Shown: piece after piece, positions 3,596-61,855 of the stretch | Numbering within the stretch: the stretch's first letter is position 1 | How the letters are laid out: every line of letters starts with the position of its first letter | Assembly (NCBI GenBank): GCA_951406725.2 | Contig: OX597820.1 | Location: forward strand, 84,382,001 to 84,446,000 | Reading direction: 5' to 3' | Origin: Octopus vulgaris | Taxonomy: Eukaryota | DNA length: 64,000 nt | Made by a program: the position numbers and the translations under genes | Notes under the pieces: generated by a model | Told to the model about the DNA's origin: nothing | The model's database searches: none | Seen by the model: the letters and a program-made list of their open reading frames with translations, nothing else

Positions 3596-3845
3596 CTAGA
3601 AGACGAGCCTCATCCTGAAAGATCTGTAGAACTCGACAAGGACATCCTGAAAACCCTGGTGGAACAAAATCTCATCGTAACTGTTGAGGAACTAGCAGAG
3701 AAGCTTGGATTTGGTCATTCAACCATTCATTGAGACCTGTGTGCTATCGGAAAAGTCAGCAAATTGGGTCAATGGGTTCCTCACGAACTTTCCGAGTCTA
3801 ATTGCATGCAGAGAGTGAATGTATGCTTTTCTTTGCTGTCACATC
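3596..3845 (+). pseudogene. Mariner transposase fragment (HTH region to WVPHEL)
   Basis: LEDEPHPERSVELDKDILKTLVEQNLIVTVEELAEKLGFGHSTIH*DLCAIGKVSKLGQWVPHEL. Confidence 0.85.
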
Positions 3846-24173: not shown

Positions 24174-24721
24174 AATTAATCAATATAGGGTGGCAAAAAA
24201 ATTTTGTAGAATTCTTTTGCCACCAGCGGCCTAGTAGGAAAAAATTAAAATAGTCAAAGACCATTTTTAAGTTCAACATCAACAATAAAGGAACGGCCAT
24301 AATAGGCCATTCACCCACTAGAAATAACAGCCAAAGCTTCAACCGCAAATAAAGGTCAATTCAGTAAACCAGGAGAAAATTTAAAAAACATTTACCCTGT
24401 AATTTCTTATACGATATACCGTTTCATCTGCTGATTAATGGTAAACTAACCTGATTAAATTAAATCAAGCCAATCTTCCACAGGCCCTCAGATTCTTCAG
24501 TAAGAAGTATCTGAGGGCCTGTGGAAGATTGGCTTGATTTAATTTAATCAGGTGAGTTTACCATTAATCAGCAGATGAAACGGTATATCGTATAAGAAAT
24601 TACAGGGTAGATGTTTTTTAAATTTTCTCCTGGTTTACTGAATTGACCTTTATTTGCGGTTGAAGCTTTGGCTGTTATTTCTAGTGGGTGAATGGCCTAT
24701 TATGGCCGTTCCTTTTATTGT

Positions 24722-38870: not shown

Positions 38871-39259
38871 ATATATAGGGAGATGTACTCGCATAGCAAG
38901 TGATTTGATCTCAGATCGTGTGCTGAAACGAAAACAATTGCAGCGTGGAAGGTGTTTGTAAGCCATTTAAGAAACACACAAGAACCGTTCGATTCACTTC
39001 AACATTTAAGTTTAATTTGTCAAAATATTTTCGTCGCTAAAATCCGCGACCTGTTCACTGACAGAAATCCGTGCTGCATCTAAGAAAGTAACAGTTAGTT
39101 CGTCATATATATGTACGTATGTATGTGTGATACACACATACACACGTACATATATATGACGAACTAACTGTTACTTTCTTGACAAATTAAACTTAAATGT
39201 TGAAGTTAATCGAACGGCTCTTGTGTGTTTCTTAAATGGCTTACAAACACCTCCCACAC

Positions 39260-39483: not shown

Positions 39484-39538
<55 letters not shown>

Positions 39539-40254
39539 CCGAAATTACTACGATGATCCGGTTCTTGACTGAAGACTGAGGGTTTCGAATGTCCTGTCCG
39601 TGTTTATTGTATCGTCTTCTAAGAGTTATACGTTCTTGTCCATGTTGTATTTTTCTACATACCTTAATATATATATATATATATCTAACAAACTGAGTAA
39701 AATAGTTCCTTCAAACGGATGTGTAAAATATCCAATTCACTGGTACTTCACTTGCATACCATGTAAATATTGGTATAATTCTATAATAACGATAAATTTA
39801 ATATAGAGATATTGTATTGACAATCTAATAATTTATTTATATTACAATATTACGTTAAATACTATGAATATGATATTATAACAACATAATATTTTAGAAA
39901 TGATTATAAAACGCCAACAAATTGTTTCGACTTATAACTTTTTTCTGATATACATAATCACTGTTCCATTATATATAAGTCACTTTAGGGGCCTTAGTTC
40001 AGAAAGACGTAATTCTGTGTGAAAGGACTGCAGGATTGTAAAAATTAATTCGAATGTTTGTGTTATGAGCGTGAGCGTTAACTATTCAATCTTACAGCTA
40101 CATTATAACGGTGAATCTCTTGGACCGCGTGAATTGTCAGGAAGCTGGTGGTTCCTTCGTGTCTGGAGGTGGGGGCTTTGAAGAGACTTAGAAGCCGACA
40201 GAAGAAAAGTCGGCAACAGTGTTTGTGAATGTGTGTATTTGTGTGCGTTTGTGT

Positions 40255-49761: not shown

Positions 49762-52700
49762 AAAAGCAATTTAAATTTGCTTCGGGCATCAATTATGCAG
49801 GATAAAAGAGACAGGATGCATTGTATTTTGAAGTCGATAATTGTTTCTCGGAGGTTGGAGTTATATAATAACTTTGATGGTCATAGTTAGCAGATAGAAT
49901 GTGCGAAAAGCCAAGGATATGCAAGTAGTAAATAGTTGCATAACGATATTAACATAAAACTGGCATCTTTCATTTGGAGGAAAAAATGGCAAATCGCAGT
50001 TCATATTTTAGTGTGAGAGATTCAAAGGTGAAAAGAATAAGGGTGTGGGAGGTCGGTAATCGGGTAACCGACCAGAAGAGAGCCGGAGAAATGATGGGAA
50101 GGAGTAAGATAGGTCCGTCTGGTAAAAGGAGGCATCACTGGTAAATTAATCAGGAAGGTTTCTGTCTATGGGGAGACTTAGAAAGAGGCAAGGAACAGGA
50201 ATGGTCTGCTGAGGTGAGGAGAATCGTAGAAGGAGGAAATAGAGGAGCAGGCATTGAAGCAAATGGTGATGGGATCTGATTGTACATATAAAAATAGGAA
50301 AAGGCAAGGACAGATTTCAAGGAATGGAGGTAAAGGAAGTTATGCTGAGATATGGAGGAAGGTACAATAAATGACTTTGCATAGTAGTTAATAGAGGAAT
50401 ACCATTTGTGCATACATAAGAAGATTTCGTCAAAGAAACTATTGAGTAATGTGGTGTTATGGAGGCGAAGAAAATCAAGCCATTACCTAGAACAAGATTT
50501 GCAAACATGGAGATTAGCCTTGCACGACGAACTATCTCAAACTTTGGATATGTTGTATGGATCATTTCGAGACGTGAGCTTTTGTATATGGAACCATTCA
50601 GGGCTTGAAATTTGTGATGTGTGTAGCTAGGGGTGTAGAGTGTCTTGCAGTTCGATTTAAACACGAGTTCATGTATTCATTGTAGCTGTGCTTCAAATCG
50701 CTTAGGGATATATTTCATCCGAGTCGTCGGCATTGTGGTAGGAGGCGATAGAGACGAGCACAGATGACGATGCTGCATCAACGGTGGCGGAGAGCAGACC
50801 TCATCGATAAGTTTAAACGCTCGTATGACTACTCAGGGAGCGAACGCTGAACTACGACGGCAGTATAAAGAGAGGGGAAAGAAGAAAGGATTTAGAAACA
50901 GCCACTCTGCAGTTGGCGTTGGGGGATGCGGGGGGTTGTTGCGGCAGAGGAAGGAAATCGCGGAGTCTTCCGCGAGGGTAGTTGTGTTAGTTCTATCTAT
51001 ATTTTGTCTCTCTCTGCGTCGTTCAGTTTCCCCCTCCAGGAGGCCGGTTGACGATGGCTCTCTGGCAAAGCGGGAGAGGGAGTATTGAGAGGCGTGCGTA
51101 AAGTGGGCGGTGAGCCTTCCATGACGTCGCCGACCGTAGGTTTTTCTTGTAATTTCCGACAGCCCTTTAGCGCCAGAGATCCCAGGGACGCGTTCGAGGT
51201 ATCGGTGTTCACTCAAGCCATATGAATTTTCATCAGTTCATGCGGATGGCCATGCTCTACATGGATAAATGAGCCGAGTGATCCCCCGTCCATAGTTTTG
51301 GTGCTACTACTAATATTACAAACAACAACAACAACAACAACAATAATTATAATAATGATATTTTTCACGATTATTTCGGTTTTTACTTGCGATACGATGG
51401 AAACGGTGGAAGGCTATGCAGTGGCAACAGCGTAAATAGAATGTCAGCAGTAGATCAGCGCACGTGTACCGCAGCTCGACGCAATGGGAAGGAGACTCAG
51501 ACGAACGCTTAATAGGAAAATGCGAAACAATATACAAGTGGGTGTGACGTCGCCTCGTAGTTAGAGCTGTCGGGCAGGTGCCAGCGAAAAACGGTGTGTA
51601 TGGTCGGCATCATACCGACTGTAAACGTGAGAATGAGGTGGCACTGCCACGACGGAGGCAAACGATCGACCAACGCTGACAGCATCAGCGGTGGCAGAGA
51701 GCGTAAAACTTGAGGATGGCCGTCGTCGGCCGATTGCTTCCGCGGAATCGATAATGATACTCTGACATATTATCCTTTGGAATGTTTGGTTGACATTTAC
51801 TTCCTCTAAACGATACACTCCAGTGGTCAGGCGGTCATATGTGTGTGTGTGTGTGTGTGTGTGTGCCTACATCTGCATAAAGTTTACGTATGTGTCAGAA
51901 AATATGAACTTTGAATTTCACCTGTATTTTATTGTAATCTACTATATAAAAACGGTATCACACAATATTACAAGAACTTTCTTTGAAGTTCTTCTGATTC
52001 CTCCCAATCCAGCCCGATAGGAAATATAATTTATAGAACGCTTAAGTGTAAAATATCGGTTAGTCACATTATAGTACTTTGTATGAACGAGAGTATGTTG
52101 AAATTCTGTTAAGACACAGCAAAACATGATTACTGAGGAACAAACTTACATTTCAAATGTAAGGTGAATTTGAACTAAAGTTGTTACACGCGGGTAATTA
52201 TGTTTACGTGTTTTTGTGTATAATTTGCCAATCTTGTATAACTTTCCCATGTCAATATTTACATCCCAGGTAGCGATAAGGATATTTCTTGATCACCTAC
52301 AAGAACAAGAATACAATCATTAGATGGCTGATGTGACAGGTATGACAGTTATATTAAGGCACTTCTGTGAGATAAAGTAAAACAGTTCTTCGAGTGTTAC
52401 AGATAAGAGAAAAGATGACATATTTATTCATCAGAAAATATTTGTCCTTAGTGTTTAGATTGCTTTATTTACTTTCCAAGCAAATATCATTTCATAGAGC
52501 AAAACTCAAGACAAAAGTAGAAGCCATCCAAAGGTTCTACGCCGATGAGATTGATTCATTACATCGGATGAATCATAAACGGGTAGGGGAAAATATTTAC
52601 TTACTTTCTTTGAGAAGTAAAATATATGGCATCATTCGTCAACAATGATCATATTACAAACGGAGAGCATTTGGATATATCGAAACGTTCGACCTCCTCA

Positions 52701-59530: not shown

Positions 59531-59531
<1 letters not shown>

Positions 59532-59720
59532 ACAATTGCAGCGTGGAAGGTGTTTGTAAGTCATTTAAGAAACACACAGAAGCCGTTCGATTCACTTCAA
59601 CATTTAAGTTTAATTTGACAAAATATTTTCGTGGCTTTAAGACCGTGACCTGTTCAATGACAAAAATCCGTGCTGCATCTGAGAAAGTAACAGTTAGTTC
59701 GTTATATACATGTACGTATG
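59531..59720 (-). mobile_element. Second copy of the element D family, with degenerate hammerhead at 59616-59662
   Basis: Highly similar to 38933-39120. The core reads TTGAACA and the stems are partly mutated. Confidence 0.85.
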
Positions 59721-60084
59721 TATGTGTGTATGTATTTATGCACGCATGTAAGCATGCATGCATGTATGTATGTACGTATGTACGCCTGTGTGTATGTATG
59801 TATGTATGTATGTACGTATGTGTGTATATACACGCACACACACACTATAAACTTAAAGCTATGAACGTGTAGTGATGGATAGATGTAGACTGACAACTCA
59901 TCACAACAATATCAAATTTCAACCTCCCTCGCAGAAACTAGGAAGTGATTTACGACCCTCACAACCACGACAAAACTCTAAAACCTATTATCAGTCACTT
60001 ATCTCTATATCACAAAACTTTTGTTTTACTATTACTTATTTCTTTTTTTTTCTCCCTTACATCTAGTTAGTTGAGGTTGTATAT

Positions 60085-60460
60085 ATATACGTATGCATGT
60101 GCGTATATATGTATGTATGTGTGCATGCACTTACGTACGCATGTGCGTATGTATGTATTTGCGCACGTATGCATGTGCGTATGTATGTATGTGTGTACAT
60201 GTACGTGCGTATGTACGTGTGTATGCCCATATACAGGTATGTATGTTTGTACACATGTGCAACGTATGTATGTGAGTATCTAGGAGAATAGACAGACGCG
60301 TATGTGTACGTGTACATGTGTATGTGCATGTGAACGTATGTCCGTGTACTGGCATGTGTCCGTCTAAGTTCTGTACATGACTGTTACTTTGTTGAAGGTT
60401 GTATATATACACACATATATGTTTGTATAGACGCACACACATATATATATGTGGATGTGC
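60085..60460. repeat. Degenerate (TG/TA/TGCA) low-complexity tract
   Basis: Directly visible. Confidence 0.85.
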
Positions 60461-61019
60461 GTTTGTTCCTCTCATCGTCATCTAACGGTGAATGGATACA
60501 ACGTTTAGGTGCAACTGTGCACATATAACCATATACATATAGACAAATACACACAATCATATAGAAACACTCATAAATACACTTATAACCTTAAAATTAT
60601 ATACTCATATATGCCTATCCACTTCTACATACATATGTGCTATTACACACATACACACACACACGCATACACACACGCACACACACGCATAAACATACAT
60701 ACACACACACACACACACATACATACAAAATATGACACAGTATTCAAGGGCAACGGTTAAAAATCGAACATGCATTATATTAACCTATCTGCTCTTTTTT
60801 TTCTTTAATTTTATATATGCATAAACGCATACATATACAATACATACATACACCCATACATACTCATATGTGCATGCATGTGCATTTTTTATAGCACCTC
60901 ACACGCACATAGGTAACAAACAACGTACGCTGATACGGTTATATATAGCTGCACATAAGTGTTTTAGCACCACACATTGCAACATGCATGTAAGGATTAC
61001 ATGTAAATGAGAGAGAGGG

Positions 61020-61855
61020 GTGGTTATAGAATGGTCCTCCTGAATGGGATCTGGATGTTACTCCATTCGGATTTTCGGTTTGAGAGTAGGTTTGTATTCT
61101 TGTATACAAACAGATTCTGTGACCTGTCTCATCATTGCATCGGTGGGATGTGTTGATAGGATGTTTAACTTAAGTTTCCCTAAGAATCCCTTGTGGCAGT
61201 CTACAGCATGTTGATAGAAGATGGAATTTGGCTTCTTTTCAATGTAGTTGTCCAGGTTTTCATTGAACCTATCATTGATAATCCTAGAAGTCTCACCTAT
61301 GTATGACTCTGGGTTAGTCGCCCAAGCTTCCTTGCCCTTGGTCTTGCAGTTCACATGTGGTTTTCTCGAACATACTGCACAATTACTTTGATACGTGATT
61401 CTATCAAATGGATATGATCTGCATAATGCAGATTTGATAGTCCTACCTGTCTTTTCTACAAATTTGATTCTAAGGCCAGTAGTGCGCAGGATTTTCTTGA
61501 ATGCCTTACTTAGCTCGTTCTTAGGTGTGGCGTCAACGAACATTAGTCCGTGAAATTTCCTGTTATCATACCAAGTATTGTTTCTCATCCTTTGTTGGTG
61601 TCTCTCTCAAGCCTATTCCAGAAATTGTTGCAGTATAGGGGGCATATACCGTTTTCGTCGCTCCTTAGAATGCGTTCGAATCTTGAATTTGCTCTGTTGT
61701 ATACTCTGACTCTATCGTCTTGTGTGTATCCGGAGAGATGCATTCGGAATATGTAGTGCTCGATGTGCTGTTGTCGTTCTTGTGGTTGGCATAGTGGGGA
61801 TGCATTCCTCATTACTCTAATTAAGTCTGCCACTAGGATGTTGAGTTTGGTAGTG
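61020..61855 (-). mobile_element. Penelope-like (Neptune-type) RT C-terminus, Cys-rich linker and GIY-YIG
   Basis: ORFs 61585-61833 and 61058-61588: MHLSGY, CAVC..NC, YIGETSR..RF.E, RQVTESVCI..KPTL. Confidence 0.85.

What the first reader, a model, noticed from the sequence alone, without database searches (positions are those of the whole stretch)
39018..39063. G3-C8 compensatory hammerhead core (GUGAACA)
Seen: perfect 5 bp stems I and II frame GUGAACA in place of CUGANGA. Positions 3 and 8 are both changed and stay complementary. The paralogue at 59616-59662 keeps C8 (UUGAACA). Established: positions 3 and 8 form a Watson-Crick tertiary pair in the active fold, and compensatory swaps can rescue activity. 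Inference: a whole repeat family uses a rare core with a UUU cleavage triplet, which canonical searches would not detect.
Basis: partly seen in the sequence, partly recalled or inferred. Interest (0 to 1): 0.75.

Follow-up and report, generated by a model that had tools for sequence, protein, structure and literature searches.

The report
Swapped-core hammerhead in Penelope retroelement
Thousands of copies of a Penelope-type jumping gene in this animal genome carry a hammerhead-shaped RNA motif in which two paired core letters have traded places (G3-C8 instead of C3-G8), a swap shared with an older related family while sister families keep the usual pair, so it is likely a slow but working self-cutting RNA, though cutting is untested.

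Summary
It is a minimal type-I hammerhead motif in the pseudo-LTR of a Neptune-like Penelope-like element (PLE), 56 nt before the ORF start. G3-C8 is the family state: 6831 of 7436 same-flank copies. An older related family also has G3-C8 (39 of 61), although position 7, the loops and the flanks changed. Sister families keep C3-G8, with further compensatory stem changes. Between families the motif is 61-76% identical while flanks are at shuffle level. The cited paralogue (U3·C8) is a decayed copy and gives no support, and the UUU triplet is already published for a PLE hammerhead. Against function: truncations do not pile up at the cut, and a young sister family fixed A9C. The engineered double mutant (partial rescue) and natural U3-A8 are published. 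Eight literature searches found no natural G3-C8, but four key papers were unavailable. This scan already noted what appears to be the same family at least four times in this genome, and similar swaps elsewhere. Verdict: new variant of a known kind; cleavage untested.

The parts
39018..39063 (-). Minimal type-I hammerhead motif with G3-C8 core
   Evidence: Sequence and fold; family counts
39059..39063 (-). Stem I, 5' strand
   Evidence: 7 bp in family copies
39052..39058 (-). Core positions 3-9, GUGAACA (G3=39058, C8=39053)
39051..39051 (-). Extra G between A9 and G10.1, a hallmark of PLE minimal hammerheads; also G in the sister families
   Evidence: PMC4209133
39033..39050 (-). Stem II (5 bp, G10.1-C11.1) with 8-nt loop
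   Evidence: pair probability 0.96-1.0 in context
39023..39032 (-). G12-A13-A14, palindromic stem III AAUAUU (39029-39024) and U17 (39023); predicted cut between 39023 and 39022
   Evidence: cut position inferred from hammerhead numbering
39018..39022 (-). Stem I, 3' strand
38876..39129 (-). 5'-truncated PLE copy (pseudo-LTR end and tail) beside (TA)n; the ORF start codon at 38966 begins the first ~30 codons
   Evidence: 93-94% identity to full element L237; start frame seen in the tandem copy L151
39130..39263 (+). Inverted partial copy of the same pseudo-LTR that lacks the hammerhead; the deletion joint lies at or within 1 nt of the predicted cut
59531..61854 (-). Second, older 5'-truncated copy: ORF C-terminal part (61854-61027, frameshifted, includes GIY-YIG region), 3' UTR, decayed hammerhead at 59662-59616
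   Evidence: tblastn 82-100% identity to residues 556-839 of the L033 ORF

Best explanation
The motif is the minimal type-I hammerhead of a Penelope-like retroelement's pseudo-LTR, whose lineage fixed a C3-G8 to G3-C8 swap, and it likely still cuts slowly, predicted to need a dimer or the element's own protein. Shown: the motif lies about 1 kb after the RT + GIY-YIG ORF and, in tandem copies, 56 nt before the next ORF start, so a tandem transcript would carry two motifs 4.26 kb apart. Shown: G3-C8 is the state of every subfamily seen and of an older related family, while sister families carry C3-G8. Inferred: the reversed pair keeps the 3-8 tertiary Watson-Crick pair of the active fold, and the 2'-OH at position 8 (the proposed general acid) is unaffected. 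Inferred: U17, already present in the nearest C3-G8 relatives, forms only a G3·U17 wobble instead of the G3-C17 trap, which would have made the swap tolerable. Inferred: two motifs pair through the palindromic stem III, or the RT protein chaperones folding, and the cut processes or gates tandem transcripts without defining the ends of most inserted copies. The single window copy is a dead insertion and is unlikely to act alone.
For: Family state: G3-C8 6831, G3/non-C8 381, non-G3/C8 201, both changed 23. No variant reached 5% at position 3 or 8 in contigs of 4 runs from 4 organism labels, while loop II and the flanks varied. PLE link: RT (YVDD), CX2-5CxxC linker and GIY-YIG; tandem copy L237 has G3-C8 motifs at 3742 and 8003 flanking the ORF. 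The sister family at 54-58% protein identity groups with this one (SH-aLRT 96, quick tree of 23 rows); 97 of its first 100 listed copies of 4497 have C3 and all 100 have G8. Further C3-G8 families appear among 1863 hits. Covariation on 19 hand-picked sequences: 91.5% of cells paired, 6 of 13 pairs changed on both sides, pair 3-8 is CG 12, GC 4, UG 3 (relatedness inflates this). The motif is 61-76% identical between families (6 comparisons) while flanks match shuffles. An older family has GUGACCA with a different loop II, no loop 3 and downstream flanks at mean 0.59 identity (shuffled 0.52), and keeps G3-C8 in 39 of 61 copies with 3 and 8 free. Literature: the C3G/G8C double mutant partly restores cleavage of a PLE hammerhead, which needs the PLE protein (PMC11167929); an engineered G3-C8 works worse with C17 than with G17, 'data not shown' (PMC3884650).
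Against: No cleavage data. Truncation joints do not pile up at the cut: 0 of 30 loci exact in the script, and about 1 exact plus about 5 ambiguous among the 100 listed of 156, counted by eye. The young sister family has C instead of the conserved A9 in 87 of its first 100 listed copies yet has intact ORFs, so a canonical core is not needed to spread. PMC11167929 found hammerhead mutants did not affect insertion in vitro and found no RNA ends at the cut. The palindromic stem III duplex is very weak (-0.2 kcal/mol), and G3·U17 extends stem I with p=0.67 in the isolated motif. Double mutants among dispersed copies are not enriched for Watson-Crick pairs: 10 of 22 after dropping one other-family hit, against about 39% expected. 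This is as expected for dead copies and adds no support. The swap was seen as one clade event, not as repeated independent swaps.
Confidence: 0.65

Rival explanations
1. The fold is kept for a non-catalytic role, for example as a binding site for the RT protein or as control of the nearby start codon, and the G3-C8 form no longer cuts in any useful way.
For: No pile-up of truncations at the cut; the young sister family fixed A9C; catalytic mutants did not affect insertion in vitro (PMC11167929); the motif lies 56 nt before the ORF start.
Against: U4-G5-A6 and G12-A13-A14-A15.1 are invariant in the 19 aligned sequences (the search patterns fixed these letters) and the 3-8 pair stays complementary. 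That pair matters in the active fold, and a binding site has no obvious need for it (established knowledge). Free position 7 varies while 3 and 8 hold.
Confidence: 0.25
2. Two neutral substitutions hitch-hiked in one master lineage after the ribozyme had died, and the complementarity is a coincidence.
For: Only one origin of the swap is seen; sister lineages do fix core changes (A9C); C>G changes are commoner than G>C on the sense strand (24 of 2402 vs 8 of 2590 sites).
Against: G3-C8 and the rest of the core persist across two families whose position 7, loops II and III and flanks diverged. A dead motif should have decayed like the flanks.
Confidence: 0.08
3. A chance hairpin pair in a repeat, with no hammerhead ancestry.
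For: No Rfam hammerhead hit.
Against: Column-for-column alignment with canonical CUGANGA hammerheads at the same place in sister PLEs.
Confidence: 0.01

Closest known systems
Minimal type-I hammerheads of metazoan PLE pseudo-LTRs (Cervera and de la Pena 2014, PMC4209133; read main text parts 1-2 of 4 and supplementary file 2 parts 1-2 of 3; file 1 not searchable)
   Same: Place in the pLTR, extra nucleotide between 9 and 10.1, G10.1-C11.1, palindromic minimal stem III, short stem I, U-rich 5' flank, mostly solo truncated copies; UUU triplet as in the Crassostrea example.
   Different: Core is G3-C8. Of the 56 representatives I counted in Fig. S3, 53 are C3-G8, 2 are U3-A8, 1 is U3-G8 and none is G3-C8. 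The extra nucleotide is G (consensus H).
Natural U3-A8 covariant hammerheads (Perreault et al. 2011, PMC3088659, passages and section 8; S. mansoni Cercyon PLEs, about 1,300 hits, PMC4209133)
   Same: Natural compensatory change at the 3-8 pair, also in a PLE family.
   Different: U3-A8 keeps pyrimidine-purine order and needs two transitions; G3-C8 reverses the order and needs two transversions.
Engineered C3G/G8C double mutant of the Anolis Poseidon (PAc) hammerhead (Frangieh et al. 2024, PMC11167929; read parts 1-2 of 4)
   Same: Same core change in a PLE hammerhead; hammerhead at the ORF start; tail running into the ORF.
   Different: Laboratory mutant with partial rescue; here the form is natural and fixed in more than 7,000 copies of a Neptune-like element.
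Non-LTR retrozymes derived from PLE pLTRs (bioRxiv 10.64898/2026.07.22.740005, part 1 of 5; PMC7229834, passages)
   Same: The same family forms a 166-bp array of about 30 units and a smaller array elsewhere in the genome.
   Different: The window copy is a solo truncated insertion; no circular RNA is shown.

Membership tests
PLE minimal type-I hammerhead | Located in the pseudo-LTR of a PLE | tested here: met
   Motifs flank the ORF in tandem copy L237; start codon 56 nt after the cut
PLE minimal type-I hammerhead | Extra nucleotide between 9 and 10.1; G10.1-C11.1 pair | tested here: met
PLE minimal type-I hammerhead | Palindromic 15.2-16.2 and loop 3 | tested here: met
   AAUAUU here; AAUU in the older family
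PLE minimal type-I hammerhead | Literal core consensus CUGANGA | tested here: not met
   GUGAACA in 6831 of 7436 same-flank copies; filed as a variant, not a plain member
PLE minimal type-I hammerhead | Watson-Crick pair between positions 3 and 8; U4, G5, A6, A9, G12, A13, A14, A15.1-U16.1, H17 | tested here: met
PLE minimal type-I hammerhead | Self-cleavage after H17 (as a dimer or with protein) | not testable with these tools
   No raw RNA reads offered
PLE minimal type-I hammerhead | Genomic footprint of cleavage (copies starting at the cut) | tested here: not met
   0 of 30 loci exact; not a defining feature, also absent for PAc
Rfam hammerhead families | Covariance-model match | tested here: not met
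   No hammerhead among 131 matches at E<=1 in the window
EN+ PLE, Neptune/Nematis type | RT followed by C-terminal GIY-YIG endonuclease in one ORF | tested here: met
   839-aa open frame in L033 with YVDD and YIGET; Pfam GIY-YIG E=6.7e-5 on the 640-aa part, RVT_1 only in 5 of 36 aligned members; the full 839 aa gave 0 Pfam families
EN+ PLE, Neptune/Nematis type | CX2-5CxxC linker between RT and EN | tested here: met
   Motif at residue 710; definition from PMC8557442
EN+ PLE, Neptune/Nematis type | Partial tandems, inverted 5'-truncated copies, tail, (TA)n targets | tested here: met
EN+ PLE, Neptune/Nematis type | Placement in the Neptune clade among named reference elements | not tested
   No named references in the tree; 'Neptune-like' rests on the linker and targets
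Non-LTR retrozyme | Short tandem units each with a hammerhead | tested here: not met
   Not met for the window copy; met for arrays of the same family on C2 and C28
Non-LTR retrozyme | Circular RNA | not testable with these tools
   No suitable RNA reads

The most novel reading that the evidence does not exclude
A whole PLE clade switched its ribozyme to a purine-3/pyrimidine-8 core and held it under selection through family turnover. This would be genetic proof that hammerhead catalysis matters in the PLE cycle although cut RNA is not the main template, and it would mean fixed CUGANGA descriptors hide whole ribozyme-bearing lineages, some of them now called ribozyme-less.
Probability: 0.5. 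Interest if true: 0.6.

Novelty: new variant of a known kind. Interest (0 to 1): 0.42.

Why it matters
What the hammerheads of Penelope-like elements do is an open question (PMC8557442, PMC11167929). A natural compensatory swap of a pair that matters in the active fold, kept across diverged families next to C3-G8 sisters and an A9C sister in the same genome, is indirect evidence of selection on catalysis and gives a ready natural series to assay. It also shows that searches with a fixed CUGANGA core miss more than 7,000 copies in one genome. The chemistry itself is not new: the double mutant is a textbook rescue.

Tried and rejected
1) Cleavage footprint. The window's inverted copy breaks at the predicted cut, but a genome-wide test found joints spread from +43 to -6 with 0 of 30 loci exact (only 30 of 156 hits were scored by script, 100 by eye). 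2) A G3·G8 intermediate lineage. G8 makes up 31 of the first 100 non-C8 copies, but 48 G8 copies had the same divergence as 40 controls (0.048 vs 0.050 and 0.056), spanned all subfamilies and shared no strongly linked site; their inverted arms were C8 in 11 and G8 in 3. Rejected as mutation bias; one older 5'-pLTR copy (L154/L238) is G3·G8. 3) C3-G8 ancestor inside the family: 2 of 23 double mutants, one from another family (L191) and one real (L192) that may be chance or conversion. 4) Expression: no RNA holder listed. Contigs of guessed-RNA runs cover the motif but cannot show ends or transcription, and the one raw DNA run laid 0 reads. 5) Relatives in metagenomes: 3 loci, none with a recognisable hammerhead. 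6) ORFs of the older C3-G8 families and of the older G3-C8 family were too short or absent for a tree, so polarity rests on published C3-G8 prevalence. 7) One search had a pattern one letter too long (0 hits); corrected. 8) The careful tree did not finish; the quick tree is cited. 9) Not readable: Lunse et al. 2017, Przybilski and Hammann 2007, Nelson and Uhlenbeck 2008, Seehafer et al. 2011 (id recalled). From memory, Seehafer's descriptor allowed any 3-8 pair, so natural G3-C8 candidates may be in print.

Full report
Observation. The feature is on the minus strand, 39063 to 39018. It has a 5-bp stem I, GUGAACA at core positions 3-9, one extra G, a 5-bp stem II closed by G10.1-C11.1, GAA, a palindromic AAUAUU stem III, U17 and the 3' strand of stem I. 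The 46-mer folds better than 198 of 200 shuffles (z -3.0). Rfam finds no hammerhead in the window. The paralogue at 59616-59662 has U3·C8, damaged stems and z +1.31: it is a decayed copy and says nothing for 3-8 pairing.

What it belongs to. A 166-nt query returned 1266 candidates in the 2.8-Gb genome; the 40 scored are 97-100% identical. The 30 fetched copies share a 3' end, usually next to (TA)n, are truncated at the 5' end and often carry an inverted partial copy. [quoted passage not shown] This is the layout of a Neptune/Nematis-type PLE as defined in PMC8557442 (passages); I did not place it among named references. L237 is a tandem copy with G3-C8 motifs at 3742 and 8003 around the ORF, and in tandem copies the ORF starts 56 nt after the predicted cut. 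The window's second copy (59531-61854) still holds the ORF's C-terminal part. A protein nearly identical to the sister family is labelled Octopus in a public source, so the host is octopus-like.

Positions 3 and 8. With identical flanks, 6831 copies are G3-C8, 381 are G3 with another base at 8, 201 are C8 with another base at 3, and 23 differ at both: 91.9% of 7436. In contigs from four runs with four organism labels, no variant reached 5% at either position, while loop II and flanks varied. Subfamily-defining changes fall in loop II and the flanks; the one in stem I (A1.3 to G, 21 of 86 copies) keeps a wobble pair. The non-G3-C8 copies behave like post-insertion mutants. The G8 class looked over-represented (31 of the first 100), but 48 such copies were no older than 40 controls, came from all subfamilies and had C8 in the inverted arm in 11 of 14 cases. 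I found no G3·G8 master lineage.

Relatives. A sister family at 54-58% protein identity (grouped with this one at SH-aLRT 96 in a quick tree of 23 rows) has a hammerhead at the same place with C3-G8. Other families with CUGA(A/U)GA, the same extra G and nearly the same stem II gave 1863 hits. On 19 hand-picked sequences, 91.5% of cells pair and 6 of 13 pairs change on both sides, including 3-8, 2.3-1.3, 10.4-11.4 and 15.2-16.2 (rows are related and the search patterns fixed many letters, so this is descriptive). Between families the motif is 61-76% identical in 6 comparisons, while 60-nt flanks are at or near shuffle level. With 3 and 8 left free, 39 of its 61 hits are G3-C8 and 2 are C3-G8 with loops of the canonical families. 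So the swap outlasted changes at position 7, in two loops and in the flanks. The family also forms a 166-bp array of about 30 units on C2 and a smaller array on C28.

Mechanism. Shown: anatomy, location and conservation. From established hammerhead structure: 3 and 8 form a tertiary Watson-Crick pair (PMC3088659) and the 2'-OH of residue 8 is the proposed general acid (PMC6155905, passages). In a PLE hammerhead the single mutants are dead, the double mutant cuts partly, and cleavage needs the PLE protein (PMC11167929). Minimal PLE hammerheads cut weakly and only as multimers or with an extended helix III (PMC4209133). Inferred: this motif cuts slowly after U17 in tandem transcripts, as a dimer or with protein help. 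An engineered G3-C8 is less active with C17 than with G17 (PMC3884650, data not shown), which fits a G3-C17 trap; U17, present in the closest C3-G8 relatives, allows only a wobble, though that wobble is predicted at p=0.67.

Results against. Truncation joints do not cluster at the cut (0 of 30 exact; about 1 exact in 100 by eye), despite the suggestive joint in the window's inverted copy. The young sister family carries C at position 9 in 87 of its first 100 copies, so elements spread with an off-consensus core. The stem III duplex is only -0.2 kcal/mol. The window copy's own stem I is shortened and barely forms in context. No RNA data could test ends.

Comparison and novelty. Every feature of PLE minimal hammerheads is met except the literal CUGANGA. 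Of 56 published representatives, 53 are C3-G8, 2 U3-A8, 1 U3-G8 and none G3-C8; 24 have U17 and the oyster one has UUU (my counts from PMC4209133 supplement). Natural U3-A8 is known. Eight searches found no natural G3-C8 hammerhead, but Lunse 2017, Seehafer 2011, Przybilski and Hammann 2007 and Nelson and Uhlenbeck 2008 could not be read, nor file 1 of the PMC4209133 supplement, and any of them may hold one. This scan has noted what appears to be the same family at least four times in this genome, and similar swaps in protist elements, another animal genome and phages; I confirmed the array and the multi-family claim, not the other genomes.

Verdict. Real feature, new variant of a known kind, interest 0.42. 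The family-level claim is solid, activity is likely (about 0.65) but untested, and the chemistry is already known from engineered mutants.

Noticed in passing
L077:8035-8080 (-); pattern count: The young sister PLE family (intact 1312-aa ORFs, 4497 motif hits) has core CUGAUGC: C replaces the conserved A9 in 87 of the first 100 copies, while an older subfamily keeps A9 (10 of 100). Possibly a dead or altered ribozyme in an active element.
   Followed up: partly
G000:C2:17908105-17912935 (L282-L287) and C28:5210919-5213478: Tandem arrays of about 166-177 bp units of this family, each with the G3-C8 motif; natural substrates for a dimer assay.
   Followed up: partly
L192:4846-4894: A single copy with family flanks but a fully canonical C3-G8 core; chance double mutation, conversion by a sister family or an ancestral remnant.
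   Followed up: partly
G000:C4:158615696-158615908: A 25-bp tandem repeat made of only the 5' half of the hammerhead (stem I strand, core, half of stem II).
   Followed up: no
88 sampled family copies: On the sense strand C>G changes (24 of 2402 sites) outnumber G>C (8 of 2590), a strand-biased pattern that may arise during integration.
   Followed up: partly
window 62313 (-): A canonical CUGAUGA ... GAAA motif with a 4-bp stem II and long loop just beyond the second element copy; not examined.
   Followed up: no
window 39537-39600 (+): GC-rich stretch after (TA)n holding GAAA before a CUGAAGA; may be the end of another retroelement with a hammerhead in a different strand order, as other notes of this scan describe for this genome.
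   Followed up: no
window 51157-51297 (-): Degenerate 5.8S rRNA-like copy (32.6 bits, E=0.00014, below the gathering score).
   Followed up: no
window 24455-24547: Near-perfect 93-nt inverted repeat; its Rfam miRNA match is below the gathering score and probably reflects only the hairpin.
   Followed up: no
L031:2926-5364, L035:1578-3146 (-): Copies of other, distant RT-encoding retroelements beside family copies (Pfam RVT_1 and a weak GIY-YIG match in L031).
   Followed up: no
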